A stretch of DNA of 64,000 nucleotides from Verrucomicrobiales bacterium (GTDB taxonomy: Bacteria > Verrucomicrobiota > Verrucomicrobiia > Verrucomicrobiales > DEV007): the NCBI GenBank assembly GCA_029213005.1, contig JARGPI010000030.1, forward strand, positions 3,984 to 67,983. The letters run 5' to 3'. Below are positions 22,638-56,730 of this stretch, in pieces. Position 1 is the first letter of the stretch; each line of letters opens with the position of its first letter. The notes under the pieces were generated by a model that was given only the letters and a program-made list of their open reading frames with translations, made no database searches and was not told where the DNA came from. Made by a program: the position numbers and the translations under genes.

Positions 22638-22672
22638 TGTACAGGGTACAATCCGGGACTGTACCCTGTACA
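22638..22672. repeat. TGTAC-N3-GTACA doublet repeat, locus 2
   Basis: TGTACAGGGTACA-atccgggac-TGTACCCTGTACA between two convergent genes. Confidence 0.92.
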
Positions 22673-33685: not shown

Positions 33686-34678
33686 TCAACTTCGCAGCGA
33701 AATCAGCACCCGGGTTCCGGACTCGGTCGGGAATGCCTCCACGTCATCAACGTATTTCAGCAACCATTCTCTGCCGACGCTTTCGGTAAGCGTCGTGTCC
33801 GCCGGTTTGGGCTGGAGATGCTCGCAGATGTTAAAATCCTCCCTCGGGATGTCGAAAGCGACGCGAAATCCCGGGCTGAGGCTGTCGATCTCCATCGCGA
33901 AGCTCTCGTCCGCCCCCAGTTCCTTGACCATCGTTCGGCACAACTCCTGAACCGCGACATTCAGCTTCACGAGGCCTTCCGACGGAAACTCCACGAGGGC
34001 ACCGATCGTTCCGAGCAGCTGAGACAAATTCTGAAACTGCTCGGCATCCGGCTGGATCGTCATTTTCACTGGCTCGAAGGCAACCCGGGCCGGCATGGGC
34101 TCACCCGTTTCCGGCGGACGTTCTTCGGCCGGAGCAGGCGACTTAAAGATCACCGTTTCCTGGAGAGAGGAATCTTTCTTAAAAATCTGGGTGCGCAGAA
34201 GCGTCGAATCCGGCTTTCTCGATTCCGGCGCTTTCTCTTCGGGCTCCGGTTCGCGCCCGAAACCGATAATGCGGCGCAACGCATTCAACCCCGAACCGCC
34301 CTCTCGAGACGTTCCCCCGGCCTGATTCCCATCACGGGAAAAACCGGTAACCGCTTCCTCCCGTGTGCCGAAGACACCACAGTCTTTGGCAAAACCGACC
34401 GTGGTGAACAGACGGCCAACCTCGGGAGTGAGACGGCAGAATTTCAAATCCCCATCCTGCTCCCGGGCAAATTTCATGATTCGCTGAAACGCCTTGAAAC
34501 CCGAGCTGGAGACAAATTCCACGCCCGATAGATCGCAAATCAACCGCGACGAACCGATCCGGATCAAAGAATTCAATTCCTCCTCAACACGATCCACCGT
34601 GTAGGAGTCGATCCGACCGTCAACCGCCACGCAGGTGACGTTGGAATTGCCAGGTAGAGGTTGAACGTCAATTTCCAT
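33686..34678 (-). CDS. STAS (anti-sigma antagonist) domain fused to a degenerate RsbW-like HATPase domain
   Basis: N-terminal VDGRIDSYT ... DLSGVEFVSSSG ... L...LFTTVGF; Pro/Glu-rich linker; C-terminal KLNVAVQELC ... GREWLLKYVDDVEAF..ESGTRV with N- and G-boxes eroded. Confidence 0.75.
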   Translation of the reverse strand: MEIDVQPLPGNSNVTCVAVDGRIDSYTVDRVEEELNSLIRIGSSRLICDLSGVEFVSSSGFKAFQRIMKFAREQDGDLKFCRLTPEVGRLFTTVGFAKDCGVFGTREEAVTGFSRDGNQAGGTSREGGSGLNALRRIIGFGREPEPEEKAPESRKPDSTLLRTQIFKKDSSLQETVIFKSPAPAEERPPETGEPMPARVAFEPVKMTIQPDAEQFQNLSQLLGTIGALVEFPSEGLVKLNVAVQELCRTMVKELGADESFAMEIDSLSPGFRVAFDIPREDFNICEHLQPKPADTTLTESVGREWLLKYVDDVEAFPTESGTRVLISLRS

Positions 34679-34725
34679 AGTTCGTTTCTCAGGTTAATCA
34701 AAGGGCGTCCTGACATCAAACAAAA

Positions 34726-37700
34726 TCAGCGTCTCCCCCTGTTCCAGCCCAGCGTGGAAATCCGGAAGGAGATCAGACCGAACAAATCGGTGAGATCATC
34801 CAGAAAACAATAAATCGCGGGGATAAAAACCAGGGTCAGAACCGTGGAAAAGGAAAGTCCGCATACCACCACCACTGCGAGCGGTCGATACAACTCGGCG
34901 CCGGTTCCGTATCCGAGAGCCAGAGGAAACATTCCCAGAACGGTGGTCAAAGTCGTCATCAAAATCGGCCTCAGCCGAGTCAACCCGGCATTGATGATTG
35001 CCTCGTTCCTCGGTTGGCCCCGCGCCCGGAGTATATTGATGTAGTCGATCAAAATAATCGCATTGTTTACCACGATCCCCGCCAGCATAATGATACCGAT
35101 CATCGCTGTCAGCGAAATCAACTCCCCACTTAAATTCAAGCCCAGCACCGCTCCGATCAGTGACAACGGAACGGAAAACATAATCGTAAAAGGATGTATC
35201 AAACTCTCAAACTGACTCGCCATAATCATATAGACCAAAACGATCGCGACAATGAAGGCGTACACGAGATACCCGAGCGATTCGTGCATCGCTGCGGAGG
35301 AACCACCGAGCACCGCGCGATAGCCGGATTCCCGATAGGGAGCCACAGCCCGGGCGACCGGTTCCGCGAGCCGAGCCTCCACTTCCTCCAGCGAAAGGTT
35401 GTCTTTATCAATAAAAATCGGCACCGTCATAATCCGCTCCCGTTCCTCACGGTTAATCAGTCCGGGGCCGGCCTGCGATTCCACCGTCGCGACATCTCTC
35501 AATTTCCAGACCTGCCCGGTTACCGGCGAAATGATATCGAGATTAAGTAGATCATTCTCGCTATTCACCTTCGCTGCTGAAGAGAGCATAATATCATAGG
35601 AGGTATTGTTGATTTCTATATCAGTCACCTGATTCCCTGCTACTGCAGCTTCAACCTGATCCGCAATATCACTTAACGTCAGTCCGCGATCCGCGGCTGC
35701 CTCCCGTTTCACTTTCAGGACCCGCTCCGGCATCCCTTTTGGAATTTGCCCCAAACTGGTGATTCCATAGTTAGCTCGTTTTTCCGAAAGCTCCCCCAAG
35801 AGCCCACCTTCCCCATCGGCTCCAGTCAGAATTTCCCGAATCGTTACCAGATCCGGGCCGGTTAATTTTAAAAGGATATCTCCCTGACTGGTTCCGAGCA
35901 GGTTCTGAATCGGGTTAAGGCTCTGAAGCTGGAAATCGAGAAACGTATCGCGCAACCCGGGATCGTTGGCGAGTGCATCCATCACCGGCGCCAGTTCTTT
36001 GACCGGCTGAACCTGACCATCCATCACCTCCGCTTTATCAAAACTGGCGATCACCCTGACCTCACGGGGCGACACCGAGACGCTGTAGTGACTTAAGGTC
36101 CCGATCCCCCCCAGTTTCGTTTCAATAGCGCGGGCCGAAAGATCTACGGCATCGAGAGTCTGCCCCGCCCTCGCCCGCAACGCCAACTGATAGCTCTCCA
36201 CTTTCGTCTCAGGGAAAAACTCAGCGGAGGGAAGCTGGTAGATCGTTACCACAAACGCGAGTGCCATAATCAGGATCAAAAGCACCCGCACTGCTACCGA
36301 TTCGATCACCGTTTTCAGAATGAGTCGATACCCGTTCGATACCGCTTTTGCGAACTGAACGAGGGGCCACAGCACAAATTGAATGGCGCGGTTGAGCCAA
36401 TCGAAGACCGCGAATTTCATACCCATCACTTTGAAAGTGAGCATTGGTATCAAGGTGAAAGCCACTACCATCGAAAAGATCAAAGTGTAGGTAATCACCC
36501 AGGAAAGATCGCGAAAAATCTGTCCGGCAATCCCGGGAACAAACACCACCGGCAAAAATACCGCGATCGTTGTCAGGGTGCTCGCCCAGACCGCAGGACC
36601 GATCTCTGCAATTGCCTCCATCACCGCTTTTTTGAACCTCCGTTCGTGCGACATCTTCTGGAAGATCGCTTCGGTCACCACAATCGCATTATCGACCACC
36701 ATGCCGACAGCGAGGGTCAAACCGGCCATCGAGAAAATATTGATACTGATCTTCCCCGCATAAAACAGGGAAAACGTCGCGATCACCGACACCGGCATCG
36801 CCAACACCACGATAAAGGTCGACTGGAACCGGCCCAGAAACACCAGTAGAATGATGCTGGCTAAAATCAGCCCCATCAATCCATTGGACCGCACCATATC
36901 GAGCGATTCCTTGATGAAAACCGACTCGTCGTAGGCAATGGTGATTTGCAGAGGTGGTGCCAGCTTGGTCAGCTCCTCTGCCGAAACATTCGGCGCATCG
37001 CGCCGGGTCAGATCAACGAGGACTTCGGCCTGCACCTCACGGGCGGAACTACAGATTTCAACCGAGTTTCCCCCACCCTTTTTATAAATCGAAACCTCGA
37101 CTGATGACGTCGCAAGGTCTGCGGCACGGGTCTTCAACCGGGCGTAACTCGCCGCACTTTTTTCAACCTCGCGGGAGCTAACCTGCGCCACCTCGCCAAG
37201 CCGCCGAATTTCACTACCCGGCGGACTGACAATAAGCAGGGACAGATTCTCGATCGATACTGCGCCCACAGTCCGAATGAGAAAAAGACTGTCACCTTCC
37301 TGTAGTTTCCCGCCCCGTTGAGACAGGTTTTCCCGTCCCAGCGCATCCCGCACCGCAAGTATAGAAAGACCCACAGCGCGTAACTTATCAGGATCGGCCC
37401 GGACCTGAACTTCATATTCTTTCCCGCCCTGCACCTCAACCGCCGCCACTCCGTTGAGCCGTTCCAGGCGGGGCTTAATGGTACGCAGTACGACATCTCT
37501 CAATTCATCGGGATGAACCGGATTCGACGCAGCGGGGTTCGATGCGATATTTAACACCATCACCGCACCGGAGGAGGAGGCACCTTTGAGAACGATCGGC
37601 TCCTCAGCTTCCTCCGGCAGATCGCTTCGAACCTCATCCAGCTTGGCCCTCACATCCATCGCGGCGAGATCCATATTGGTTCCCCATTGAAACGTCAGAT

Positions 37701-37968
37701 TGATCCGGCTGCGCTCATCTCCCGATGTCGAAACCATCGAAGTCGCCCCCTTCACCGTGCCCAGCTTTTCTTCAATCTTCCGGGTCACATTTTGTTCGAT
37801 TTCACTACTGGCCGCGCCCTCGTATTGTGTTTCGATCATCAGCTCCGGCTGGCTGACATCGGGGAACAAATCCTGAGGAAGTCGCTGATAGGCCGCTCCG
37901 CCAAACAATATCATCAGAAGCGTCAACATAAGGACGCTTACCGGACGATTGACGGAAAATTCTTTCAT
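34726..37968 (-). CDS. RND efflux permease (AcrB/MdtB-like), subunit B
   Basis: FSVNRPV, DLFPDVSQP, GMVVDNAIVV, GIVVNNAIILID, RLRPILMTTLTT; ATG at 37968 preferred over track start 38055. Confidence 0.95.
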   Translation of the reverse strand: MKEFSVNRPVSVLMLTLLMILFGGAAYQRLPQDLFPDVSQPELMIETQYEGAASSEIEQNVTRKIEEKLGTVKGATSMVSTSGDERSRINLTFQWGTNMDLAAMDVRAKLDEVRSDLPEEAEEPIVLKGASSSGAVMVLNIASNPAASNPVHPDELRDVVLRTIKPRLERLNGVAAVEVQGGKEYEVQVRADPDKLRAVGLSILAVRDALGRENLSQRGGKLQEGDSLFLIRTVGAVSIENLSLLIVSPPGSEIRRLGEVAQVSSREVEKSAASYARLKTRAADLATSSVEVSIYKKGGGNSVEICSSAREVQAEVLVDLTRRDAPNVSAEELTKLAPPLQITIAYDESVFIKESLDMVRSNGLMGLILASIILLVFLGRFQSTFIVVLAMPVSVIATFSLFYAGKISINIFSMAGLTLAVGMVVDNAIVVTEAIFQKMSHERRFKKAVMEAIAEIGPAVWASTLTTIAVFLPVVFVPGIAGQIFRDLSWVITYTLIFSMVVAFTLIPMLTFKVMGMKFAVFDWLNRAIQFVLWPLVQFAKAVSNGYRLILKTVIESVAVRVLLILIMALAFVVTIYQLPSAEFFPETKVESYQLALRARAGQTLDAVDLSARAIETKLGGIGTLSHYSVSVSPREVRVIASFDKAEVMDGQVQPVKELAPVMDALANDPGLRDTFLDFQLQSLNPIQNLLGTSQGDILLKLTGPDLVTIREILTGADGEGGLLGELSEKRANYGITSLGQIPKGMPERVLKVKREAAADRGLTLSDIADQVEAAVAGNQVTDIEINNTSYDIMLSSAAKVNSENDLLNLDIISPVTGQVWKLRDVATVESQAGPGLINREERERIMTVPIFIDKDNLSLEEVEARLAEPVARAVAPYRESGYRAVLGGSSAAMHESLGYLVYAFIVAIVLVYMIMASQFESLIHPFTIMFSVPLSLIGAVLGLNLSGELISLTAMIGIIMLAGIVVNNAIILIDYINILRARGQPRNEAIINAGLTRLRPILMTTLTTVLGMFPLALGYGTGAELYRPLAVVVVCGLSFSTVLTLVFIPAIYCFLDDLTDLFGLISFRISTLGWNRGRR

Positions 37969-37989
37969 AAAATCAGCGAGATAAAGGGA

Positions 37990-38335
37990 CGAAAGTTCGA
38001 GACGGTACAGGGTCAAACATTTCGCACCTGTGATTCCAGAGATCAAAAAGCCCAAAGGGCTGATTCAGTCTAGCCCGGGGCAGCGCCCCGGGTTTGGATA
38101 CTAATAAATTTTCAGCGCTGAAGGCGCGATTCAAGCTGGCCACCACGATGGGGCGTACAAACAAATTTGGATTTCGTATCACCCTCTTTACCGCTGTTTG
38201 AATCGCACTTTCAGCGCTTTTTCTGAGGGGCGTCCGAATTCCCGGGGCGCTGCCCCGGGCTGGTTTGAATCGCGCCTTTAGCGCTGCGAAAGTTCGAGAC
38301 TGTACAGGGTACAGTCCAAAAGTGTACAGGGTACA
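37990..38335. repeat. Composite palindromic element (A-B-A ... A'-B'-A', 38049-38285) bracketed by 24-bp direct repeats, followed by TGTAC-N3-GTACA doublet locus 3
   Basis: B unit AGCCCGGGGCAGCGCCCCGGG at 38072-38092 and its exact inverse at 38241-38261; A units AGCGCTGAAGGCGCGATTCAA-like at 38049, 38114, 38198(-), 38265(-); CGAAAGTTCGAGAC(G/T)GTACAGGGT at 37990-38013 and 38287-38310; TGTACAGGGTACA at 38301 and 38323. Confidence 0.88.
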
Positions 38336-38352
38336 ATCGGTAAAACTCATCA

Positions 38353-38652
38353 CTAAAAGAAGTCGTCGACCTGCGATACCACGCAGCGCGTTGCCGGATC
38401 CCGCCCCATCCGTTTGGTTACATCCTGAAACCGTCGTACGGCGGCGACGACCCGCCCGGCAGCCTCTTCATCGATAATTGTAACAATCACATTATTGATC
38501 CCCGGCCCGATAGCATTGTTCAGCTTTTCACCGGATTCACCTTTTCCGGTGACGCCGTGAAAGCGGGTGTAGTTATCTACCTTGGCCTGTCGGAGAATCA
38601 TCATGATCTCATTCTCATTTGATTCCTCGAATATTATTTCCACACGCTTCAT
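38353..38652 (-). CDS. PII-like protein (PG0541-type, transporter-associated)
   Basis: MKRVEII ... YTRFHGVTGKGESG ... GPGINNVIVTII ... V.AVRRF; PII-like size (99 aa); start overlaps the RND-A stop (ATGA). Confidence 0.75.
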   Translation of the reverse strand: MKRVEIIFEESNENEIMMILRQAKVDNYTRFHGVTGKGESGEKLNNAIGPGINNVIVTIIDEEAAGRVVAAVRRFQDVTKRMGRDPATRCVVSQVDDFF

Positions 38653-41600
38653 ATATTTCCCCCCAGCATTCGATCTTTAGCGACTGAAAAACGAAATCCC
38701 AGTGACGATGAAAATTCGGCCAACTCATCCAGCAATGAATAGAGAATCGGCAAGGCGAGCAGCGTCAATGGAGTCGACGCGATAAGACCGCCCACCACAA
38801 CCGCCGCCACACCCCGGTAAAGTTCCGTTCCTTCGCCCACTCCGAAAATCAAGGGCACCATCCCGAGAATCGATGTCGTGCTGGTAATCAGAATGCTGCG
38901 CAGCTTCCGTACCGAACCCTGGATAATGGCATCGTCCCGCTCCACACCACGCTGCCGGAGAATATTGATATATTCGACGAGGATAATTCCGTTATTCACC
39001 ACCACCCCGCAAAGAATTACCGCCCCCACGAAGGCCCCGAGGCTGAAAAGTTCGCCGGTGAGATTCAGCATCAAAACCGAACCCGCCGCGGCCAGTGGAA
39101 CCGTTACCATGATCGCGAGCGGATCGAGAAATTTTTCGAACTGGCTGCACATAATCATATAGATCAAAGCCACCGAAATCAAAAAGGCGAAAAACGCATC
39201 TGAAAATGATTCTTTAGTATCTTTGGCCTCACTTTCGATTTGATAGCCAAAGGAATCGTTAAATCCGGGGATGAGTGAAAGCGCCTTTTCAATTTGGGCG
39301 GTCACATCCCCAATTGTCTCACCCGTAACATCATAGGGCGCATAGTGACATTCCAGATTAACGGTCGGTTTCCGGTTGGTCCGCTCCAAAACAATACTGC
39401 CCTCTCCCGGTGAGGGATTCACCACCGCAACTTCCCTGATTTCGTGAAGCAAACCGGTGGAAGCGGAGCGAACCCGGAGGCTCTCCAGCGATTCCGGGGT
39501 GAAATTGCCTTTCGACTCTCCATTACTGTCCTCCAGAAACACCGTGACATCCGTCTCGCCCCCGTTCTCCAAAACCGTTGCGGCCTTCACTCCATAAACC
39601 GACGCTCTGACCGTGTCTGATATTTGCCGGGTGGTTAACCCTTTCTCATTCAGCTCCACCCGTTTCGGCAGTGTAGAGATTTCGATCTCTTTTGGCGTTT
39701 CGTTGATCCGGATTCGCTGATAGATCGCACTGGGTATCGTTTTGAAGACAGGTAGAATCCGTTCCTCCACCTCGGTCTGGAGCGCTTTGAGCTGGCTCGA
39801 TTCATCAAGATCCGACCACGGTTTCCGGGAATACACTTTAAACACAATCGGAGCTGTGGTACCTCCGCGAATTTTGTCTACCAGCGAGACGAAGTTTTTG
39901 CCTTTCAAATCCGGTGTAGAATCGCAACCCTCGCGAATCTGCTGTACACATCTTGATAGAGAGGACCATTGCTGAGGGCGCATTTTCGGTCCTCCTTCAA
40001 TTTCCCGGTTAGGGTAAAGCCTCACGAATAATTTACCTTCGTCATTTCGAATATCTGCTGAGATCGATTTTACAAAATCACGATAGGGAGCGGTTTGCAG
40101 TAATTCTTCGACGCGCTTTAAGCGTTCATCCACGTAGTCGAGCGTCACTCCTGCCGGGGCCTCAAACCGGATCCACAGTTCATCGACATTACCCTGAGGA
40201 AGAAAGCCCCGACCGGGCAAAAATTTCAATGAGAGCAAGGATATCCCGATGAGAAAAACCAATATACCGATTTTGAGAGGCCGCCCCCGAAGCAAAAGCT
40301 TCAAAAGATCGGAGAGTGAATTCTCACTGAATCGATCCCATCGGCACATCGCTTTCTCTATTTTCTGAAAAGGTCGCAACACCACTCCGAGCCATCCGGT
40401 CGCCACCTTTTGGTCCGCCGACTTGGGAGAAAGAATCCGGGCACTGACCATGGGGATAAAGACAATTCCCACTACCATACTCATCAAAACCGACCAGATA
40501 ATGGCGTGGGCGAGACTTTTGAATACCTCCTGCATCAACCCCGGTATAAACAGGATCGGCAGAAACACCGCGACGCTCGTCATTGTCGAGCTGAAGATCC
40601 CCATCGCCACTTCCGAAGCTCCCCGGATCGCCGCCTCTTTCGGGTTTTGACCGAGGCTCAGTTGTTTATAGATCGATTCGATTAACACGATGGAACTGTC
40701 GAGCGTTAAACCGACAGCCAGCCCCAGCCCGCCAAGGGTCAGAATATTCCGACTGATATCAAATCCGTTCAAAAAGATCGCGGCAGACATCATACTAATC
40801 GGCGTTGCCAGCACAACGATAACCGCCGCCCGGAGATCGCGAAGGAACAGAAACAACAGCAACCCTGCGAGGCCGCCCCCCTGCACGATCGAACTGATCA
40901 CAAGTGACTGGGAACTGATCACATACTCGGAATCGTCCTGAGCGATCTGGACTTTGATACCACGTTTTTCCAATACGGGGCTCAATCGTTCCAACTCTTT
41001 CTTAATGCGTTCAACTACCGTAACGACCGACGCGTCCGACGATTTCTTTATCGATAAACCAACCGAAGGCGCGCCATCGATCCGGGCATAGCTCCGTGTT
41101 TCTTTATTAGTCCGGATTACCTCTGCCACATCGCGAATCCTGATTGGACTTTGACCCGGAGGATTTGCCACAATCAAATTTTCGAGATCAGCTTCGGTAT
41201 TGGCTTTCCCCAGAATCCGAAGGGACGCCACCTTTCCATCTTCGATCTCTATTGTGCCACCTTTCCGGTTTTTCGATTCGATCGAGACGGCGCGGATCAA
41301 ACTGAGAACGGTTAATTGATACTGAGCGAGTTTATCCCGGTCACCGACTACCCGGTATTCCGGATCGGTTCCCCCGACGACTTCGACTTCGCCAACCCCG
41401 GCGAGTCTTTCCAGCCCGGGTTTTATCATATCATCAGCCAGCCCCCGCAGGTCCTCAGTCGATAGACCACCACCGACGATATCGAACCGGAAAACCGGAG
41501 CACTCGACGGATCGAACTTCTTGATTAAGGGGCGTGACGCGGCATCGGGGAGATTCAGAGCATTCACCAGCTCCCTCACTTCGATCTCTGCGGCCCGGAC

Positions 41601-41900
41601 ATCGGTTCCCCAATCCAACTGTAGAATGAGGCGGCTCTCCCCCTCCAGCGAAATCGAATTCAATGAGACCAGATTACTGACTCCATTGAGACTTTCCTCG
41701 AGAGGCAGGGTCACTTCTTTATGAACCTTTTCGGGTGAGGTCTTCGGAACTTCCGTTAGCACTACGAGAGTCGGTATAGAAATACTGGGAAGTAACTCCA
41801 CTTCCATCCGGTTGAGTGAAAAGATCCCTCCCATGACCAGAGCCAGCATCAACATGCAGGTCGTCACCGGATGATTAACACTGAACCGAATGATATTCAT
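38649..41900 (-). CDS. RND efflux permease (AcrB/MdtC-like), subunit A
   Basis: FSVNHPV, ELLPSISIP, GLTLDSSIVLIE, GVVVNNGIILVE, KLRSILITSTT. Confidence 0.95.
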   Translation of the reverse strand: MNIIRFSVNHPVTTCMLMLALVMGGIFSLNRMEVELLPSISIPTLVVLTEVPKTSPEKVHKEVTLPLEESLNGVSNLVSLNSISLEGESRLILQLDWGTDVRAAEIEVRELVNALNLPDAASRPLIKKFDPSSAPVFRFDIVGGGLSTEDLRGLADDMIKPGLERLAGVGEVEVVGGTDPEYRVVGDRDKLAQYQLTVLSLIRAVSIESKNRKGGTIEIEDGKVASLRILGKANTEADLENLIVANPPGQSPIRIRDVAEVIRTNKETRSYARIDGAPSVGLSIKKSSDASVVTVVERIKKELERLSPVLEKRGIKVQIAQDDSEYVISSQSLVISSIVQGGGLAGLLLFLFLRDLRAAVIVVLATPISMMSAAIFLNGFDISRNILTLGGLGLAVGLTLDSSIVLIESIYKQLSLGQNPKEAAIRGASEVAMGIFSSTMTSVAVFLPILFIPGLMQEVFKSLAHAIIWSVLMSMVVGIVFIPMVSARILSPKSADQKVATGWLGVVLRPFQKIEKAMCRWDRFSENSLSDLLKLLLRGRPLKIGILVFLIGISLLSLKFLPGRGFLPQGNVDELWIRFEAPAGVTLDYVDERLKRVEELLQTAPYRDFVKSISADIRNDEGKLFVRLYPNREIEGGPKMRPQQWSSLSRCVQQIREGCDSTPDLKGKNFVSLVDKIRGGTTAPIVFKVYSRKPWSDLDESSQLKALQTEVEERILPVFKTIPSAIYQRIRINETPKEIEISTLPKRVELNEKGLTTRQISDTVRASVYGVKAATVLENGGETDVTVFLEDSNGESKGNFTPESLESLRVRSASTGLLHEIREVAVVNPSPGEGSIVLERTNRKPTVNLECHYAPYDVTGETIGDVTAQIEKALSLIPGFNDSFGYQIESEAKDTKESFSDAFFAFLISVALIYMIMCSQFEKFLDPLAIMVTVPLAAAGSVLMLNLTGELFSLGAFVGAVILCGVVVNNGIILVEYINILRQRGVERDDAIIQGSVRKLRSILITSTTSILGMVPLIFGVGEGTELYRGVAAVVVGGLIASTPLTLLALPILYSLLDELAEFSSSLGFRFSVAKDRMLGGNI

Positions 41901-43879
41901 TCCGGAAGCCCGACTGACTCATCCGGATTCAGGATCACCACTTTCAGTCCGTGCTTCACCGCCTTATTCCCTTTAATTACAATCAGATCGTCAGCCGAGA
42001 GCTTTTTCGAATCTTCAATCGGCAACGTCTCAATATACTTTTTGCCGAGATGCTCTACCTCCTGACCGCGCCGGACCGGCACCAGATTAGCGACACTTTC
42101 CCCCGGATCGATCGTAAAAACATGATAGCCAGACTGGTTGTTGGTGTCGAGAGCGGAAAGCGGGATCAGCACAGAGCCCTCGCGAGTCCGGGTAATAAAC
42201 CGTACCGAAACCTGCTGCCCGGGCCGAAAATGATAGTCCCGGTTCGGCACTGAAATCTCTACATCATAAGTCCGGTTCAAAGCGGTGGGAGGGATGTAGC
42301 TTACCTTTCCCCGAAAGACCTGCTCCGGAGCCCGCGACAGCCAGACCTCCGCCTCCATATTTTTACGGATTGATATGATATCGTCCTCCGATACCGAAAC
42401 GGTCACTTTCACCTCGCTCTCATACTCGATCAACTCCATCGAGGAATTGATAGCGGTCACTGTATACCCCTCTTTCAAATCGAGCCGGTTCACGACGCCT
42501 GCGGAATTGGCGGTGATCGTCAGATCATCGATCATCACATCGACATCACCGAGCTCGGTTTGGACCTGAAAGACCTTCTCTTTCGCCTGCACAATGGTTC
42601 GCTCCGCCTGCTCTTTCTCCTCTGCCCGCAACTTCACCGCCGTGCGAGCCTCAGCCAGCTTCACGAGGATTTCGTCCCATTCTTTTTGAAGTAGATTTCC
42701 ATTCCGGTAAACGCGGTAGCTGCGGTCGTGTGTATTCTGGATGATGGAGAGATTTTCGCGGGCATTCCCCAGGACCGCGATGGCTTTGGCCACTTCCGAT
42801 TCCGTTTTCGCGACATCTTCCCGGGCCTGATTCAACCCCGCCACCGCCTGTTTCCGGGCGGAACGCAACTCTTCGGTCAATTCAAACGTGACCAGAGGCT
42901 CACCCTTCCGGACCCGGTCGCCGTTTTTGACATGCACCGTCTCGACTTTCCGCCCCGGCGGGAATGGAATGATATCCTGCCGCGCCAGCTGAACATTTCC
43001 GGTTTTCTCCAGCGTCACCGGAACATCCGCCACGACAGGATGCCCGACCAGCACCGGCACCACTTCCTGAGCCCCGGGCTGAGTCGCCTCCGAAGCGACA
43101 GATTCGGGATTATCTCCCCGCCCCGACATATAGAGAAATACCAATACTCCCGAAATGATCGCCGAAATCAGCCCAAAGGCAGCCGTGTTGCACCCCGAAG
43201 CAAAGCGGGATTCTTTTTCATCCGTCATCTGAGCTGCCGCAGCCTCTTCATCAACCTCGGCAAAAGAAAACATGAAGCGATGCGTTCCTACTTGTATTAC
43301 ATCGCCGGATCGCAATACTTCTTTCTTTACCGGCCGATTGTTTAGCAGCGTCCCGTTTGAAGAACCCAGATCCCTGAGAAAATACCGGGAATTTTCCAAG
43401 ACGATTTCGGTATTGATGCGACTCGAACCGGGGTCATCGATCTGAATCCGACAGATGGGCAGCCGACCTATCAACGTCGGCTCCTCACCAAGTATAAAAA
43501 CCGAGCCCTGACCTGCGCCGGATTTCTGAGTGAGAACACCGCTCTTCCCACCCGGGGCCAAATCGGTAAGGATTTCCGAGGCACTACCGGTTTTGGCTAG
43601 CTGAAGTTGATACTCCCCGATCTCAATGACATCGCCTTCCTTGATTTCCACCCTGGTTTTCGGCGGAATCGAGACACTGCTGATTACCGTGCCATTACCC
43701 GTCCCCAGATCTTCGAAAAAGAATAGTCCATCCCTTGCCGTGAGGCGACCATGACGGCGCGAAGCTTTAGGGTCATCAATAGAAATATCGCTGTCCGGAT
43801 GCCTTCCAACGCTCCAGTTCCCCGCCGATTTCAGAGGGAAATGAGTGGTCGACGATTTTGAGAGTATCACTAATTCCAT
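41897..43879 (-). CDS. RND periplasmic adaptor (MFP) with two N-terminal FHA domains
   Basis: FHA1 WSVGRHPDSDI.IDDPKASRRH ... DLGTGNGT; FHA2 LIGRLPICRI.IDDPGSSRIN ... DLGSSNGT; one TM helix; then lipoyl/hairpin/beta-barrel MFP (VHVKNGDRVRKGEPL, ITANSAGVV, FRGKVSYI, FRPGQ, LIPLSAL). Confidence 0.9.
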   Translation of the reverse strand: MELVILSKSSTTHFPLKSAGNWSVGRHPDSDISIDDPKASRRHGRLTARDGLFFFEDLGTGNGTVISSVSIPPKTRVEIKEGDVIEIGEYQLQLAKTGSASEILTDLAPGGKSGVLTQKSGAGQGSVFILGEEPTLIGRLPICRIQIDDPGSSRINTEIVLENSRYFLRDLGSSNGTLLNNRPVKKEVLRSGDVIQVGTHRFMFSFAEVDEEAAAAQMTDEKESRFASGCNTAAFGLISAIISGVLVFLYMSGRGDNPESVASEATQPGAQEVVPVLVGHPVVADVPVTLEKTGNVQLARQDIIPFPPGRKVETVHVKNGDRVRKGEPLVTFELTEELRSARKQAVAGLNQAREDVAKTESEVAKAIAVLGNARENLSIIQNTHDRSYRVYRNGNLLQKEWDEILVKLAEARTAVKLRAEEKEQAERTIVQAKEKVFQVQTELGDVDVMIDDLTITANSAGVVNRLDLKEGYTVTAINSSMELIEYESEVKVTVSVSEDDIISIRKNMEAEVWLSRAPEQVFRGKVSYIPPTALNRTYDVEISVPNRDYHFRPGQQVSVRFITRTREGSVLIPLSALDTNNQSGYHVFTIDPGESVANLVPVRRGQEVEHLGKKYIETLPIEDSKKLSADDLIVIKGNKAVKHGLKVVILNPDESVGLPE

Positions 43880-43912
43880 AGCTCCCTCCGGGCCACGAGC
43901 AGACCGTATTAA

Positions 43913-45445
43913 CTACGGATTAATCATCCCCGCTTCCCGGTCGAGATGGGCCTGAGCCTCTTTCACGTCATACATAGCCTTGAGAACTCCGACTTTCGCT
44001 TCGTTGAATTCATTCTCAGCTTTGGCTACATCTGCCCGGGTTGCGTTTTTGATCAATGCCAGTTCCTTTCTTAACTTTAGATTTTCAGTAGCAGCTGCTG
44101 CATTCTTCTTTGCTACAGTAACACTATTAAGAGCTTCTTCGACTCTATTTTGTGCCTCTTTAATCCTCAGTTGTAGAGAACCGTTCAGAGTCGCCGCATC
44201 AGCAGCGAGCTGGATCTGCCTGGCATAGGCTTCATTCAACTTGGCATTTGCCGCGACTCGCTGACGTCCGACCGGCACACTGACATAGGCACCGACCTGA
44301 TAGTTTGATCCATCGGGCAATAGATTCGTCGTCCCGATAGTCTCCTGCGAATTCGATTCCTCGACATGCCCCCGCAACACCACTTTAGGGAGTCGTCCCG
44401 CCCGGGCGGCCCGCTCCGCTGAAGAGGCCGCCATTTCCGCCGCCCGCACCCGCTGCATTTCAGGGTGACATTCCACATCCACCAGATCGATGCCGGGGCG
44501 TCTTGATACCGATAAACGCTCATTCACCGTAACGCAGTCATTTCGATCCCGACCTATATAGAACAACAACTGCGCCGCGGAGAGATCGTAGCCATTTTTC
44601 GCCTTCAACAGTTCCTGCTCTGCCTGAGCCACGCCGGCATCTACCAGAAGCAACTCAGCATTCCGGGCCTCGCGGGCCTTGACCCGATCCAGCACCGCTG
44701 CCTTTTCTCTCCGTTTTGCGGCAAGTGCCGATTCCCGCAGAGCGACCACTTCTTTGAAAAAGACCAATCTCCAATAGACCTCCGTCACGTGATAAACTGT
44801 CTCCAATTCTTTGACCTTCGCGTGCCAGAAATGCGACTTGGCCTGCGACCTTTCCATTTGAATCTTCCCCCGGGTTTCCCCCCAGTCGAGCAGAGCCTGC
44901 TCGGCCATCAGGCCATAGGCATCCCGCTTGCTTTCACCTCCGCCAATCCGACCGGGCACCCCGAATGTTGCCCCGGGCTGCGAATCGTGAGTGCCATAAG
45001 CGGCGATCAGGGGAAAAGCGTCTTTACCCGTAAATTCACTCTGTGCCAGCTTGATAATTTGATCCTGGCGAACGGAAAGCAGCTCTGGATTGCGCTGCAG
45101 AGCTTCCTCAATCAAACTCGACAAAGCGTCCGATCGGCTCTTTTTCGCAACGGGGATCTCCTGCGGTGCTACCGGAACCGCCACATATCGCGGTTTTTCT
45201 TCGGGTGGTGCCGGTTCCTTCTTTTCAGGCCCTTTCAGCCTTTTGAACAAACCGGGGCCTTTCCGAAATTTCTTCGCTTTCACCTCGGCCTCCACCGGTG
45301 TCGCGATCAATGGCTCATCGGCCCTTGAATCGATCATGAAAAGCATCAAAACGAGTAACACACCACAGCAAAACGCCCCGTGAACGCTTCTCAAAGAAGC
45401 CCGCCCACTTTTCGTTGTTCTGGTTTCCTGCTCTCTCATGACCAC
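43913..45445 (-). CDS. TolC-family outer-membrane efflux protein
   Basis: LIEEALQRNPEL, LLDWGETRG, YHVTEVYWRL, RAARAGRLPKV, GAYVSVPV; helical-barrel repeats. Confidence 0.9.
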   Translation of the reverse strand: MVMREQETRTTKSGRASLRSVHGAFCCGVLLVLMLFMIDSRADEPLIATPVEAEVKAKKFRKGPGLFKRLKGPEKKEPAPPEEKPRYVAVPVAPQEIPVAKKSRSDALSSLIEEALQRNPELLSVRQDQIIKLAQSEFTGKDAFPLIAAYGTHDSQPGATFGVPGRIGGGESKRDAYGLMAEQALLDWGETRGKIQMERSQAKSHFWHAKVKELETVYHVTEVYWRLVFFKEVVALRESALAAKRREKAAVLDRVKAREARNAELLLVDAGVAQAEQELLKAKNGYDLSAAQLLFYIGRDRNDCVTVNERLSVSRRPGIDLVDVECHPEMQRVRAAEMAASSAERAARAGRLPKVVLRGHVEESNSQETIGTTNLLPDGSNYQVGAYVSVPVGRQRVAANAKLNEAYARQIQLAADAATLNGSLQLRIKEAQNRVEEALNSVTVAKKNAAAATENLKLRKELALIKNATRADVAKAENEFNEAKVGVLKAMYDVKEAQAHLDREAGMINP

Positions 45446-46130: not shown

Positions 46131-48092
46131 TCAGTCCCGGATCCGGCGAAAGCCGGCGTCGACGATTCGTTTCAGCATTCCCTGGTAATCACAATTTTCC
46201 ATTGCTGCCATTTTGGCCAGATGCCCGTCCCAACACCACCCCGGATTGGGGTTGGCTTCAAGGAGGCGGGGCGTTCCGTTTGAGTCAAGACGCCAGTCAA
46301 AGCGGGCATAATCCCGACATTCGAGGCGCTCGAACAATCGACGACACGAGGAGATCAAAAAGCTTTCCACTTCGACGTCCAAATCAGCCGGAATCGCCTT
46401 TAAATTCCAGTATGGCGATGTCGGATCCCACTTTGCCTCATATCCGCAGATTTTAGGCAGGTCATCAGGCAGGCAACTGTAGTCTTCCTGAATAATCGGT
46501 AGTGGAATCAAATCGTTCGGCATATTGCCGATAAATCCGACACTAATATCTTTACCAGTCAAAAATTCCTCAACCAGAATGGTCTGATTGTAGCCGAATT
46601 TTTCCCGGATTTCGCTGATCGCTTTTTCCAGCTCAAGAATATCGCGACAAACTGAATTTTGGGTGATCCCCACGCTGGAATCGCCAAAGTTCGGCTTAAC
46701 CATCACCGGAAAGGCAATCGTCAACTCATGGAAAGTCGTCGCATCCGGTTCGATCACAAATGCCTCAGGCACAGGGATTTCCATTTCTTTGGCAATTCCC
46801 CGGACCAGTGATTTGTCGAAACAGAAAGCGAGGCACTGAGGTGTACCGCCAGTGTATTCCACGCCCATGATCTCGAAAAGCGCCGGGACATGCAATTCGT
46901 AGCGGGCCCGGTTATCAAAACCCTCGTCGCACAAGTTGAATACCAGGTCACTATTTGCGTTTATCTCCGCGAGATCCGCAATAAGAGTGTCGTGGTTATC
47001 GTAGTAGGTAAATTGATAGCCCTCGAGCTCGTCGATCGCTTCACGCAGTTTATTTAATACCGCAAAATCATCCTCATCAAAAGAACCGTTCGGCTTTACG
47101 GTGTCGGTCCGTCGAGGATCTCCGAGGACAACGGCTACCTTCCGAACCGCTTCACTGGTTTTATCCTGAAGCGCCCATTCTTTATCGGGAGTTCCGATAT
47201 AGAGAATTCGCTGGGCCATCATCCCAAGGTCCTGATTTCTCTGGCTCACGGTAACAAACGGCTCGTGAGCGTTAACATCTTTAAAACCCTGATCCGTTAA
47301 AAACTGAATCATCTGCGGCTCGGAGTAAAGTCGCTCAGCATAGAACTGGTCCGATACCACACCCTTCCGGGTATGAGTGATCACTTCGCGGGAAATCAAA
47401 CGGCTCCCATCATCCGAGAGGCAACGCTCCCGGCAAACCAGGTAGTTTTTATCAATCCATTCCCAACTTCTCGGTTCATACTTCGAGCGCATATACTCGC
47501 CGTCGGTCAGATCAAGGAGCACTTTTCCATCCGGTTTCAGAATGCGATGAATCTCGCTGAGCACCGCCTCGTCTTCCTGAGACGAATCGAAATACCCGAA
47601 ACTGTTTCCGGGAACCATCACAAAGTCGAAAGTGTCATCAGGGAACGGAAGGGTCCGCGCATCACCTTCACGGAAAGTGATACTGAGCCCTTCACGCTTC
47701 GAAGTGATCCGCGCACGGGAAATCAAATAGTGAGACCGGTCGAGACCCGTAACGTTCGCAAAACCCCGTCTCGCGAGAGCGATTGAGTGACGTCCCTGAC
47801 CACAGCAGAGATCGAGGAATTTTGCGTCGGGAGCCGGATTGAGCACATTGAGAAAAGCCGAGATTTCACTCTCGGTAATTTCCGGATCGTTTACGACATC
47901 CCCGTCAGTTCTGAGGTAGTTGGCGTTGAACACATCTCTCCACCAGTCCGCTTTGACATAGCTTTGTAAGTCATCAACCGGGCCGAGAATTTCCGGCTTC
48001 CGATTGTTCTTTTTTGGTTTCGATGGCTTACGCCGGGTGGTTTTGGGGGCCTTGGCCCGCTTAGGTGACTTTTCAGTTGTCGATATCTTCAT
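46131..48092 (-). CDS. SAM-dependent methyltransferase fused to a D-Ala-D-Ala-ligase-like ATP-grasp domain
   Basis: FLDLCCGQGRH, EGDARTLPF, GNSFGYF, LKPDGKVLLD; then VFNLCDEG, EYTGG, VKPNFGDSSVGI, EEFLTG, RDYARFDWR, LEANPNPG. Confidence 0.88.
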   Translation of the reverse strand: MKISTTEKSPKRAKAPKTTRRKPSKPKKNNRKPEILGPVDDLQSYVKADWWRDVFNANYLRTDGDVVNDPEITESEISAFLNVLNPAPDAKFLDLCCGQGRHSIALARRGFANVTGLDRSHYLISRARITSKREGLSITFREGDARTLPFPDDTFDFVMVPGNSFGYFDSSQEDEAVLSEIHRILKPDGKVLLDLTDGEYMRSKYEPRSWEWIDKNYLVCRERCLSDDGSRLISREVITHTRKGVVSDQFYAERLYSEPQMIQFLTDQGFKDVNAHEPFVTVSQRNQDLGMMAQRILYIGTPDKEWALQDKTSEAVRKVAVVLGDPRRTDTVKPNGSFDEDDFAVLNKLREAIDELEGYQFTYYDNHDTLIADLAEINANSDLVFNLCDEGFDNRARYELHVPALFEIMGVEYTGGTPQCLAFCFDKSLVRGIAKEMEIPVPEAFVIEPDATTFHELTIAFPVMVKPNFGDSSVGITQNSVCRDILELEKAISEIREKFGYNQTILVEEFLTGKDISVGFIGNMPNDLIPLPIIQEDYSCLPDDLPKICGYEAKWDPTSPYWNLKAIPADLDVEVESFLISSCRRLFERLECRDYARFDWRLDSNGTPRLLEANPNPGWCWDGHLAKMAAMENCDYQGMLKRIVDAGFRRIRD

Positions 48093-54246: not shown

Positions 54247-54281
54247 TGTACCCTGTACAATCCGGGACTGTACAGGGTACA
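54247..54281. repeat. TGTAC-N3-GTACA doublet repeat, locus 4
   Basis: TGTACCCTGTACA-atccgggac-TGTACAGGGTACA between convergent genes; spacer identical to locus 2 but both cores flipped. Confidence 0.92.

Positions 54282-54315: not shown

Positions 54316-56730
<2,415 letters not shown>

What the first reader, a model, noticed from the sequence alone, without database searches (positions are those of the whole stretch)
33686..45445. Signalling-coupled heteromeric RND export operon: TolC, FHA2-MFP, RND-A, PII-like, RND-B, STAS/pseudo-RsbW
Seen: six co-oriented genes. MFP/RND-A and RND-A/PII overlap by 4 nt, TolC-MFP is separated by 33 nt and RND-B-STAS by 47 nt. Known: tripartite RND pumps are normally controlled at transcription; FHA domains bind phosphothreonine, PII folds sense nucleotides or metabolites, and STAS/RsbW modules do partner switching. 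Inference: three cytoplasmic signalling modules sit in one pump operon, so export may be gated post-translationally by Ser/Thr phosphorylation and metabolic state. No kinase is encoded in the window. I do not know of a characterised system with this architecture.
Basis: partly seen in the sequence, partly recalled or inferred. Interest (0 to 1): 0.88.

Follow-up and report, generated by a model that had tools for sequence, protein, structure and literature searches.

The report
RND efflux operon with phosphothreonine-signalling parts
A rare gene cluster, conserved in a few uncultured Verrucomicrobia, couples a two-permease RND efflux pump to a phosphothreonine-reading adaptor, a PII-like protein and a fused STAS/dead-RsbW protein, which suggests the pump is controlled after translation and not only at transcription.

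Summary
Six co-oriented minus-strand genes encode TolC/OEP, a FHA-FHA-TM-MFP adaptor, RND-A, a 99-aa PII-like protein, RND-B and a STAS protein.

- RND-B starts at ATG 37968.
- That leaves a 384-nt gap after the PII gene, holding a roughly 297-nt repeat insertion that relatives lack.
- The PII-like gene belongs to a curated family (NCBIfam PG0541, "transporter-associated protein") that commonly follows RND genes.

The "pseudo-RsbW" call holds. The C-terminal domain matches SpoIIAB/RsbW by fold and M. tuberculosis UsfX by sequence (E 2e-5).

All six genes are syntenic in six other loci (adaptor 43-63% identical) with unrelated flanks, and three partial loci agree. In two relatives a Hanks-type Ser/Thr kinase (six TM segments plus HAMP) directly follows the STAS gene. 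The window encodes no kinase.

The pThr-binding residues of the FHA domains are conserved. The disordered linker of the STAS protein carries two invariant Thr motifs, one resembling the kinase activation loop.

Best reading: a pThr-controlled RND exporter, analogous to Rv1747/PknF. Gating, heterotrimer formation and substrate are untested. I rate it a new variant of a known kind.

The parts
43913..45445 (-). Outer-membrane factor (TolC/OEP family), 510 aa, GTG start, N-terminal hydrophobic signal-like segment at residues 20-38
   Evidence: Pfam OEP E 4.7e-26. Orthologues are 35-65% identical at the same position in 8 loci. Hydropathy.
41897..43879 (-). FHA-FHA-TM-MFP: periplasmic adaptor (HlyD/RND_mfp) with two N-terminal cytoplasmic FHA domains, 660 aa
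   Evidence: Pfam FHA x2 plus HlyD_D23 and HlyD_3. NCBIfam RND_mfp scores 98.7 bits against a cut-off of 94.9. There is a single TM segment at residues 233-251. Only about 10 full-length cluster representatives exist among 1.84e9 proteins.
43616..43816 (-). FHA1 (residues 22-88), with canonical G25-R26, S40-R41, N62-G63
   Evidence: These residues are invariant in 8 homologues. FHA1 is degenerate only in the distant P0049 and P0054.
43265..43522 (-). FHA2 (residues ~120-205), with G138-R139, S153-R154, N175-G176-T177
   Evidence: These residues are invariant in all 13 FHA-MFP proteins, down to 26% identity.
43127..43183 (-). Single transmembrane helix of the adaptor (residues 233-251). It places the FHA domains in the cytoplasm and the MFP in the periplasm.
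   Evidence: Kyte-Doolittle scan, mean hydropathy 2.24.
38649..41900 (-). RND-A permease, 1083 aa. It overlaps the MFP stop and the PII start by 4 nt each.
   Evidence: Pfam ACR_tran E 2.2e-199. Orthologues are 57-69% identical. The TM4 motif is 'LDSS' and the TM10 motif is 'VVNNG'.
38353..38652 (-). PII-like protein, PG0541 family ('transporter-associated protein'), 99 aa. It is the best-conserved product of the cluster.
   Evidence: Pfam P-II 33.8 bits against a cut-off of 25. NCBIfam NF045581 58.6 bits against 45. AF2 model plus Foldseek hit CPII, PotN, SbtB and PII at E ~1e-4. It is 75-83% identical in close relatives.
38014..38310 (.). Roughly 297-nt repeat-rich insertion in the PII/RND-B spacer. 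It has 24-nt direct repeats at 37990-38013 and 38287-38310, inverted two-hairpin units, and an Acido-Lenti-1-like motif at 38241-38285 (+).
   Evidence: Rfam RF01687 scores 34.1 bits (gathering score 37), E 3.9e-6. The insertion is absent from relatives.
34726..37968 (-). RND-B permease, 1080 aa, counted from ATG 37968
   Evidence: Pfam ACR_tran E 4.1e-196, starting at ORF residue 30. Orthologue N-termini agree. It is 59-76% identical to orthologues but only about 30-38% identical to RND-A. Best PDB match is MdtB 9lyq_B, E 4e-83.
33686..34678 (-). STAS - disordered linker - RsbW/UsfX-like pseudo-kinase domain, 330 aa
   Evidence: Pfam STAS. AF2 model: both domains have pLDDT 70-89, and the linker (residues 116-197) is below 50. 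Foldseek matches SpoIIAA/RsbV and also SpoIIAB/RsbW/UsfX chains. A profile of the C-terminal domain hits UsfX at E 2.2e-5.
34154..34192 (-). Two invariant threonines in the otherwise variable linker: T163 ('T-Q-I-F') and T175 ('T-V-I-F'). They are candidate pThr ligands for the two FHA domains.
   Evidence: Both are invariant in 9 orthologues, including the distant L101 clade. Motif 1 resembles the kinase activation loop 'NTQ[IV]G'.

Best explanation
This is a conserved, lineage-restricted (Verrucomicrobiales-like) tripartite RND export system with built-in phosphothreonine signalling parts.

Shown:
- The core resembles the known four-gene unit OMF / adaptor / RND / PG0541-type PII-like protein. 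A second module is appended: a paralogous RND-B, a STAS-linker-dead-RsbW protein and, in some genomes, a membrane Hanks-type Ser/Thr kinase with six TM segments and a HAMP domain.
- The adaptor carries two cytoplasmic FHA domains with intact pThr-binding residues.
- The STAS protein has a disordered linker with two invariant Thr-hydrophobic motifs.

Inferred mechanism:
1. The kinase, which is encoded elsewhere in this genome if it is present at all, phosphorylates these two threonines and/or itself.
2. The tandem FHA domains of the adaptor dock on the pThr sites. This recruits or releases the STAS/RsbW-like module at the cytoplasmic face of the pump and changes pump assembly or activity.
3. 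The PII-like trimer binds the cytoplasmic face of an RND permease through its highly conserved T-loop-like segment, as GlnK does with AmtB and SbtB with SbtA. This adds a second, ligand-dependent input.

RND-A and RND-B are ancient paralogues that are both always kept, so they probably work together, either as a heterotrimer or as two trimers sharing one adaptor and one channel. The substrate is unknown.
For: - Domain content.
- Six-gene synteny with unrelated flanks in L001, L002, L003, L085, L096 and L101, plus partial agreement in L004, L098 and L100.
- Conserved 4-nt overlaps at MFP/RND-A and RND-A/PII.
- A kinase directly after STAS in L002 (9-nt gap) and L003 (1-nt overlap).
- FHA GR/SR/NG(T) residues invariant.
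- T163 and T175 invariant in a linker that is otherwise full of indels.
- The kinase activation loop 'NTQI/V' resembles linker motif 1.
- STAS plus RsbW-like fold and UsfX sequence similarity.
- Similar rarity of the three unusual proteins in a database of 5.8e9 proteins: about 10 FHA-MFP, 7 STAS-RsbW-like and 6 kinase homologues.
- Independent domain fusions that join the same parts: Pkinase+MFP (P0272), Pkinase+RND porter fragment (P0261) and STAS+FHA (P0036).
- The PII-like model matches transporter-bound PII-likes, namely CPII, PotN and SbtB, and its T-loop-like stretch is its most conserved part.
- Precedent: Rv1747, an FHA-FHA ABC exporter in an operon with pknF that is positively regulated by phosphorylation of two Thr in a disordered linker (PMC3138270, PMC8339232).
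Against: - No kinase or PP2C phosphatase lies in the 64-kb window.
- The kinase is adjacent in only 2 of 5 relatives where the downstream gene is visible. Its orthologues also occur away from any pump (L102, L104).
- No phosphorylation, binding or transport was tested.
- The canonical STAS phospho-Ser position is not conserved (SSS / SSA / TGS / AGP). The RsbW-like domain lacks the N-box Asn in the aligned stretch, so classical partner switching by phosphorylation of STAS is unlikely.
- In this window a 384-nt gap with hairpins and one terminator-like site (38061-38049) separates PII from RND-B.
- All relatives are metagenomic contigs or MAGs, and there are few of them.
- The AF2 models are of moderate quality (pLDDT 69 and 72), built from 6 and 1 sequences.
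Confidence: 0.5

Rival explanations
1. The pump is the sensor and the signalling parts are the output. The conformation or load of the RND complex is relayed through the FHA adaptor to the STAS/RsbW-like protein. Its anti-sigma-like domain then holds or releases a sigma factor or another partner, so the module controls transcription rather than gating export.
For: The C-terminal domain is most similar to true anti-sigma factors, SpoIIAB, RsbW and M. tuberculosis UsfX. It is fused to its own antagonist-type STAS domain, which suits a self-inhibited switch. In the aligned stretch it lacks the N-box Asn, and the G1 and G2 boxes also look lost by eye. Binding would therefore be its likely role, not catalysis.
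Against: No sigma factor gene is conserved in or next to the cluster in any of the loci. The nearest sigma factor in the window is an ECF sigma/FecR pair 14 kb away with its own anti-sigma gene.
Confidence: 0.2
2. The FHA domains act mainly as a clustering or assembly scaffold. They would do this by pThr-dependent multivalent self-association (as proposed for Rv1747) or without pThr (as for YscD/PrgH-type FHA-like domains). The STAS and PII proteins would then be independent regulators that merely share the operon.
For: Six adaptors per pump would display twelve FHA domains, which is a multivalent array. Pfam also scores the domains as Yop-YscD_cpl, E 8e-27. Rv1747 is a precedent.
Against: Canonical pThr-binding residues are strictly kept, especially in FHA2, unlike T3SS FHA-like domains. 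No invariant Thr was seen in the adaptor's own linkers. The two invariant Thr lie in the co-conserved STAS protein.
Confidence: 0.15
3. This is an ordinary RND multidrug or metal efflux operon. The signalling genes are neighbours by chance or are non-functional remnants.
For: The RND, MFP and OMF parts are standard. The kinase is absent here. In one relative (L085) the STAS gene is truncated by an IS3 insertion, and in L101 RND-B is split into two ORFs.
Against: The gene order is kept across loci whose adaptors are 43-63% identical while the flanks differ completely. The PII-like protein is the most conserved product, at 75-83%. The FHA fusion itself lies inside the adaptor gene. Invariant functional residues argue for selection.
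Confidence: 0.08

Closest known systems
Mycobacterium tuberculosis Rv1747 / PknF (FHA-FHA ABC exporter with cognate Ser/Thr kinase)
   Same: An exporter component carries two cytoplasmic FHA domains. A Hanks-type kinase lies in the same operon in two relatives here. Two Thr sites sit in a disordered linker. The regulation is post-translational (PMC3138270, PMC8339232).
   Different: The transporter class is different: a proton-driven RND tripartite pump rather than an ABC exporter. The FHA domains sit on the periplasmic adaptor, not on the permease. The candidate pThr sites lie on a separate STAS/RsbW-like protein. A PII-like protein and a second permease are additional. There is no sequence orthology beyond the FHA domains.
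PG0541-type RND operons (P. gingivalis PG0538-PG0541) and PII-NG / CzcABC clusters
   Same: The order OMF, adaptor, RND, then a small PII-like 'transporter-associated protein' is the same. Distant PII-like homologues (31-35% identical) also lie directly after an RND gene in 7 of 7 metagenomic loci. PII-NG clusters with czcABC.
   Different: Those operons have one RND gene, a plain adaptor without FHA domains, and no STAS/RsbW or kinase genes. The function of the PII-like protein is uncharacterised there too.
MdtABC / MuxABC heteromultimeric RND pumps
   Same: Two paralogous RND permeases share one operon with a single adaptor. MdtB is the best PDB match of RND-B.
   Different: Scores are far below the MdtB and MdtC equivalog cut-offs (339-353 bits against 1584-1774). 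A PII-like gene separates the two permeases. Both permeases lack the AcrB D408 and K940 equivalents. Heteromer formation is untested.
SpoIIAA-SpoIIAB / RsbV-RsbW / RsfA,B-UsfX partner-switching modules
   Same: The STAS fold and the anti-sigma (GHKL-like) fold are both present.
   Different: Both are fused into one polypeptide by an approximately 85-residue disordered linker. The ATP-binding motifs appear lost. The STAS phospho-Ser is not conserved. There is no sigma factor partner in the cluster.
GlnK-AmtB, SbtB-SbtA, PotN-PotABCD (PII-like proteins that plug or regulate the transporter encoded next to them)
   Same: A small PII-fold protein is encoded beside a transporter. It has a flexible T-loop-like segment that is its most conserved part.
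   Different: The partner would be an RND permease. Ligand binding and the complex are untested. Identity to these proteins is only 13-23%.

Membership tests
Tripartite RND efflux system | OMF (OEP), periplasmic adaptor (MFP) and a 12-TM RND permease encoded together | tested here: met
   Pfam OEP, HlyD_D23/HlyD_3 and ACR_tran are all above gathering scores. NCBIfam RND_mfp scores 98.7 against a cut-off of 94.9.
Tripartite RND efflux system | Assignment to a curated RND subfamily (HAE1 TIGR00915, HME TIGR00914, RND_permease_1 or _2) | tested here: not met
   The best hit, RND_permease_2, scores 557-560 bits against a cut-off of 1250. HAE1 and HME models score about equally, 332-356 bits, and both are below their cut-offs.
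Tripartite RND efflux system | HAE1 proton-relay residues (AcrB D407, D408, K940, R971) | tested here: not met
   The D407 and R971 equivalents are present. The D408 equivalent is S in RND-A and N in RND-B, and the K940 equivalent is N in both. This comes from alignments to CmeB, MdtB and MdtF. The AcrB residue numbering is from memory.
Heteromultimeric RND pump (MdtBC/MuxBC type) | Two distinct RND paralogues co-encoded with one adaptor | tested here: met
   RND-A and RND-B are 29-38% identical to each other. Both are retained in every locus that is visible.
Heteromultimeric RND pump (MdtBC/MuxBC type) | Orthology to MdtB or MdtC | tested here: not met
   The proteins score 315-353 bits against equivalog cut-offs of 1584 and 1774.
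Heteromultimeric RND pump (MdtBC/MuxBC type) | Physical heterotrimer | not testable with these tools
   This needs co-purification or cryo-EM.
PG0541 family transporter-associated protein (NF045581) | Score above the curated cut-off | tested here: met
   58.6 bits against a cut-off of 45, E 4.6e-16.
PG0541 family transporter-associated protein (NF045581) | Encoded directly downstream of an RND permease gene | tested here: met
   There is a 4-nt overlap with RND-A here. The position is the same in all relatives, and in 7 of 7 distant homologues.
PII (GlnB/GlnK) superfamily | PII ferredoxin-like fold with a T-loop | tested here: met
   Pfam P-II 33.8 bits against 25. The single-sequence AF2 model (pLDDT 72) has a beta-alpha-beta-beta-alpha-beta order with residues 38-50 disordered. 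Foldseek hits CPII, PotN, SbtB and PII at E ~1e-4 with TM ~0.5.
PII (GlnB/GlnK) superfamily | Nucleotide / 2-oxoglutarate binding and trimer formation | not testable with these tools
   No ligand or oligomer prediction was available.
FHA phosphothreonine-binding domain | Conserved Gly-Arg, Ser-x-x-His/Ser-Arg and Asn-Gly loops that contact pThr | tested here: met
   G25 R26 S40 R41 N62 G63 and G138 R139 S153 R154 N175 G176 T177 are invariant. The FHA2 set is invariant in 13 proteins down to 26% identity.
FHA phosphothreonine-binding domain | Actual pThr peptide binding | not testable with these tools
   This needs ITC, SPR or pull-down experiments.
STAS anti-sigma-factor antagonist (SpoIIAA/RsbV) | STAS fold | tested here: met
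   Pfam STAS E 3.6e-18. Foldseek 1th8_B and 6m36_H, E ~1e-7, TMt 0.83-0.89.
STAS anti-sigma-factor antagonist (SpoIIAA/RsbV) | Conserved phosphorylatable Ser at the start of helix 2; score above the TIGR00377 cut-off | tested here: not met
   The position reads SSS, SSA, TGS, AGP or SSP among orthologues. TIGR00377 scores 47.7 bits against a cut-off of 53.45. Placement of the phospho-Ser is by my own alignment to the SpoIIAA 'DSSG' motif, recalled from memory.
RsbW/SpoIIAB anti-sigma Ser kinase (HATPase_c_2) | GHKL/Bergerat-type fold of anti-sigma kinases | tested here: met
   Foldseek hits SpoIIAB (1thn_A, 1l0o_A, 1th8_A), RsbW (6m36_A, C) and UsfX (8ih8_C, 8jzt_B) at E 2e-7 to 3e-5 with TMt 0.65-0.84. 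A profile of the domain hits UsfX at E 2.2e-5.
RsbW/SpoIIAB anti-sigma Ser kinase (HATPase_c_2) | ATP-binding N-box Asn and G1 (DxGxG) / G2 boxes; Pfam HATPase_c_2 hit | tested here: not met
   There is no Pfam hit for the window protein, and only 1 of 7 orthologues reaches E 0.0024. In the aligned N-box region 'AVqELCRtmV' there is no Asn. Loss of G1 and G2 was judged by eye against SpoIIAB motifs recalled from memory.
Rv1747/PknF-type FHA-regulated exporter | Tandem FHA domains on an exporter component plus a cognate Hanks kinase in the operon | tested here: inconclusive
   The tandem FHA domains are present. The kinase is in the operon in L002 and L003. It is absent from the window, L001 and L101.

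The most novel reading that the evidence does not exclude
This would be the first RND-type efflux pump whose activity or assembly is switched post-translationally by Hanks-kinase phosphothreonine signalling. An intramembrane-sensing kinase (6 TM plus HAMP) phosphorylates two invariant Thr in the linker of a STAS/dead-RsbW scaffold. The tandem FHA domains on the hexameric adaptor read these marks. A PG0541 PII-like trimer plugs or tunes the permeases. This would also give the widespread but uncharacterised PG0541 / PII-NG 'transporter-associated' proteins their first mechanistic context.
Probability: 0.3. Interest if true: 0.8.

Novelty: new variant of a known kind. Interest (0 to 1): 0.62.

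Why it matters
RND pumps are central to bacterial drug and metal resistance, and their control is understood almost entirely at the level of transcription.

A conserved operon in which the adaptor itself carries pThr readers, next to a PII-like protein and a partner-switch-like protein, would be a natural test case for direct, fast control of an RND pump. It would also be a handle on the unknown role of PG0541 and PII-NG proteins, which follow RND genes in many phyla.

The system is rare and is known only from uncultured Verrucomicrobia. Its immediate value is therefore conceptual, plus a set of concrete biochemical tests, rather than clinical.

Tried and rejected
1. The genome-contig scan with the FHA-MFP alignment chose generic FHA motifs as patterns. 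All 80 loci match only the FHA region, and none has the MFP part, the PII gene or the STAS gene.
2. The metagenome scan with the PII-like alignment found only one close locus, the same contig as L085, plus 7 distant single-RND loci.
3. Riboswitch or known RNA in the 384-nt gap: only a sub-threshold Acido-Lenti-1-like hit, antisense to the operon. I rejected it as a regulator of the operon because relatives lack the whole insertion.
4. Internal promoters and terminators: the counts are not above the shuffled expectation, 11 against 8.1 and 19 against 15.4, so no conclusion can be drawn on transcription units.
5. ORF 37973-38353 (126 aa) in the gap has no Pfam hit and lies over the repeat element. 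I rejected it as a gene.
The single-sequence model is only moderate.
7. A PDB sequence search with the PII-like protein found nothing meaningful.
8. Literature searches for an FHA-bearing adaptor or a STAS protein with RND pumps found no relevant paper. The library does not include most subscription-journal papers.
9. Heavy-metal (HME) identity of the pump was considered because of the PII-NG/Czc link. It is not supported, because the HME and HAE1 models score equally and both fall below their cut-offs.
10. I looked for the kinase in the window's own genome. Only the 64-kb window is available, so presence elsewhere cannot be checked.


Full report
**Observation**

The six genes exist as described, all on the minus strand:

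| Gene | Coordinates |
|---|---|
| OEP/TolC | 43913-45445 |
| FHA-FHA-MFP | 41897-43879 |
| RND-A | 38649-41900 |
| PII-like | 38353-38652 |
| RND-B | ORF 34726-38055 |
| STAS protein | 33686-34678 |

Pfam confirms OEP, two FHA domains plus HlyD barrel-sandwich domains, ACR_tran twice, P-II and STAS, all above gathering scores.

Two points were missed.
- The ACR_tran match in RND-B begins at ORF residue 30, and every orthologue starts M[KR][ED]F.VNRPVSV. RND-B therefore starts at ATG 37968.
- This leaves 384 nt between the PII stop and the RND-B start, against 6-103 nt in relatives. The extra DNA is a roughly 297-nt insertion bounded by 24-nt direct repeats, 96% identical. It carries inverted copies of a two-hairpin unit. 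One copy scores just below threshold as Rfam Acido-Lenti-1 on the antisense strand: 34.1 bits against a gathering score of 37, E 3.9e-6.

The 126-aa ORF in this gap has no family match, and I regard it as spurious.

**Anatomy of the unusual proteins**

*The adaptor.* It has FHA1 at residues 22-88, FHA2 at about 120-205, one TM helix at 233-251, and a periplasmic MFP. This places both FHA domains in the cytoplasm. The residues that contact phosphothreonine in FHA domains are the Gly-Arg, Ser-Arg and Asn-Gly loops (established knowledge of the fold). These are invariant in eight homologues. For FHA2 they are invariant in all 13 FHA-MFP proteins I could collect, down to 26% identity.

*The STAS protein.* It has three parts: a STAS domain (residues 1-113), a linker predicted as disordered (residues 116-197, pLDDT below 50), and a folded C-terminal domain (about 200-330, pLDDT 70-88).
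- Foldseek with the model returns both halves of partner-switching complexes. These are SpoIIAA and RsbV chains for the STAS domain, and SpoIIAB, RsbW and UsfX chains for the C-terminal domain, at E 2e-7 to 3e-5 and TMt 0.65-0.84.
- A sequence profile of the C-terminal domain alone hits M. tuberculosis anti-sigma-F RsbW/UsfX at E 2.2e-5.
- The window protein has no HATPase_c_2 hit, and the aligned N-box region has no Asn.

The canonical STAS phospho-serine position varies among orthologues (SSS, SSA, TGS, AGP). Classical RsbW-type phosphorylation of STAS is therefore unlikely.

In contrast, two threonines in the linker are invariant in all nine orthologues, although the surrounding linker is full of substitutions and indels. 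They are T163, in 'T-Q-I-F', and T175, in 'T-V-I-F'.

*The PII-like protein.* It passes the Pfam P-II threshold. It also passes the curated cut-off of NCBIfam NF045581, 'PG0541 family transporter-associated protein', at 58.6 bits against 45. A single-sequence model (pLDDT 72) has the PII topology with a disordered T-loop-like segment at residues 38-50. It matches the transporter-linked PII-likes CPII, PotN and SbtB, as well as canonical PII, at E ~1e-4. The T-loop-like stretch (residues 36-53) is the most conserved part of the protein.

**Comparative evidence**

The adaptor has only about ten full-length homologues among 5.8e9 clustered proteins. It has about ten full-length cluster representatives among 1.84e9 proteins scanned exhaustively.

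I fetched the contigs of these homologues. The complete order OEP / FHA-MFP / RND-A / PII / RND-B / STAS is present in six loci:
- L001, a Verrucomicrobiales MAG
- L002
- L003
- L085, where the STAS gene is truncated by an IS3 insertion
- L096, where the STAS gene is cut by the contig end
- L101

In these loci the adaptor is 43-63% identical to the window's (full-length alignments; tblastn of its two halves gives 38-68%).

Three partial loci agree as far as they reach: L004, L098 and L100.

The flanking genes differ in every locus, so the conserved unit is the six genes themselves. The 4-nt overlaps at MFP/RND-A and RND-A/PII recur in the close relatives.

The PII-like product is the best conserved, at 75-83% identity in close relatives. 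It is followed by RND-B (69-76%) and RND-A (62-69%). The STAS protein is the least conserved, at 45-56%.

RND-A and RND-B are only 29-38% identical to each other. The duplication is therefore older than the clade, and both copies have been retained.

That is not the case.

**The kinase**

In L002 and L003 a gene of 613 and 607 aa follows the STAS gene, after a 9-nt gap in L002 and with a 1-nt overlap in L003. It encodes a Hanks-type kinase domain, about six TM segments and a C-terminal HAMP domain. With an even number of TM segments, both the kinase and HAMP domains would be cytoplasmic, which suggests sensing within the membrane.

The activation loop reads 'FNTQ[IV]GFGTPGY', which resembles linker motif 1 of the STAS protein.

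This kinase type is as rare as the pump, with six full-length homologues. It is not always linked to the pump, because two orthologues lie elsewhere (L102, L104). The window, L001 and L101 have no kinase beside the cluster.

The window encodes no Pkinase or PP2C at all. A kinase elsewhere in this genome is therefore plausible but unverified.

Independent domain fusions tie the same parts together:
- P0272: Pkinase plus an HlyD-type MFP
- P0261: Pkinase plus an RND porter fragment
- P0036: STAS plus FHA

**The permeases**

Both score best with the generic RND_permease_2 model, but far below its cut-off. The HAE1 and HME models score equally. MdtB, a subunit of a known heteromeric pump, is the best PDB match of RND-B.

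Both permeases keep the first TM4 Asp. Both replace the second Asp (AcrB D408 equivalent) with Ser in RND-A and Asn in RND-B. Both replace the TM10 Lys (K940 equivalent) with Asn (the AcrB numbering is from memory). They thus form a divergent RND branch with an atypical relay.

Neither the substrate nor the oligomeric state can be inferred from these data.

**Mechanism**

Shown:
- The parts, their topology and their co-conservation.
- The intact pThr-binding residues.
- The two invariant Thr.
- The kinase adjacency in two genomes.

Inferred:
- The kinase phosphorylates the two linker threonines and/or itself.
- The two FHA domains of each adaptor dock on these sites. This brings the STAS/RsbW-like module to the cytoplasmic face of the pump, or releases it.
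- The PII-like trimer binds a permease through its T-loop-like segment, by analogy with GlnK-AmtB and SbtB-SbtA. This part rests on my own knowledge of those systems plus the fold match.

The main rival reverses the direction of signalling. The pump reports its state through the anti-sigma-like domain to a transcription partner. The UsfX-like fold is compatible with that, but no sigma factor gene is conserved nearby.

**Comparison with known systems and novelty**

The first four genes copy a known arrangement. P. gingivalis PG0538-PG0541 is TolC, adaptor, RND and 'transporter-associated protein'. PII-NG genes cluster with czcABC. Seven distant PII-like homologues all follow a single RND gene, with no FHA, STAS or second RND. 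The PII/RND link is therefore not new, although its function remains uncharacterised.

The closest functional analogue is Rv1747/PknF of M. tuberculosis. It is an ABC exporter with two FHA domains, in an operon with a Hanks kinase, regulated through two Thr in a disordered linker.

What I could not find described, in three full-text searches, is:
- an RND adaptor carrying FHA domains;
- a STAS/dead-RsbW fusion in a pump operon;
- the combination of the two.

I therefore rate this a new variant of a known kind. It is a real, selected architecture with a testable mechanism, but it is rare, known only from uncultured Verrucomicrobia, and has no functional data.

**Caveats**

- All relatives are MAG or metagenome contigs, and the sample is small.
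- Both AF2 models are moderate, built from alignments of 6 and 1 sequences.
- The genome-contig scan was uninformative.
- In this particular window the repeat insertion, with GC hairpins and one terminator-like site at 38061-38049, may uncouple RND-B and STAS from the upstream genes.

Noticed in passing
window 38014-38310 (gap 37969-38352): A roughly 297-nt repeat-rich insertion lies between the PII-like gene and RND-B. It is bounded by 24-nt direct repeats and carries inverted two-hairpin units. One unit (38241-38285, + strand) scores 34.1 bits against Rfam Acido-Lenti-1 (gathering score 37). Relatives lack the insertion. It looks like a small mobile or MITE-like element.
   Followed up: partly
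window 12788-12822, 22641-22669, 38304-38335, 54247-54281, 63910-63938: A REP-like element. The 10-mer TGTACCCTGT occurs 10 times against 1.2 expected, always as pairs 19-25 nt apart in intergenic DNA. Most pairs are inverted and would form hairpins at gene ends. The PII/RND-B spacer of L001 carries the same 10-mer twice.
   Followed up: partly
L002 19959-21800; L003 17760-19583: A Hanks-type Ser/Thr kinase with about six TM segments and a C-terminal HAMP domain lies directly after the STAS gene. This is an unusual kinase architecture, with only six full-length homologues found.
   Followed up: yes
database proteins P0272, P0261, P0036: Three domain fusions link the same signalling parts: Pkinase plus an HlyD-type adaptor (P0272), Pkinase plus an RND porter-domain fragment (P0261), and STAS plus FHA (P0036, from a 1-kb contig).
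   Followed up: partly
window 29486-31348 (+): A class II fumarase (Lyase_1 plus FumaraseC_C) carries an N-terminal cyclic-nucleotide-binding domain. This is an unusual fusion that suggests cNMP-regulated fumarase.
   Followed up: no
window 2456-5248 (-): A 930-aa protein combines acetyl-CoA hydrolase/transferase domains, a GNAT acetyltransferase and a histone-deacetylase-type domain.
   Followed up: no
window 46131-48092 (-): A SAM-methyltransferase domain is fused to a D-Ala-D-Ala-ligase-type ATP-grasp domain. The gene lies just upstream of the pump cluster and is not conserved beside the cluster in relatives.
   Followed up: no
window 54316-57165 (-): A Fur-family regulator plus catalase-peroxidase pair lies about 9-11 kb upstream of the cluster. 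The same pair lies immediately upstream of the OEP gene in L003, in divergent orientation. This is a possible remnant of shared context, or a hint of a link to metal or oxidative stress.
   Followed up: no
window 21949-22629 (+); 57397-59331 (-); 25653-27494 (-): Three other features: a bacterial GPP34 (Golgi phosphoprotein 3) homologue; an ankyrin plus Kelch repeat protein; and a trypsin-like peptidase inside a low-GC stretch (0.446 at 26-28 kb, against about 0.53 elsewhere).
   Followed up: no
L085 10001-12226; L101 9257-12579: There are signs of decay in some relatives. In L085 the STAS gene is truncated after residue 255 by an IS3-family insertion (HTH_Tnp_1 plus rve). In L101 RND-B is split into two ORFs of 722 and 386 aa, from a frameshift or an assembly error.
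   Followed up: partly
window RND-A 38649-41900 and RND-B 34726-37968: Both permeases lack the second TM4 Asp (Ser in RND-A, Asn in RND-B) and the TM10 Lys (Asn in both) of the AcrB-type proton relay. This suggests a divergent coupling mechanism.
   Followed up: partly
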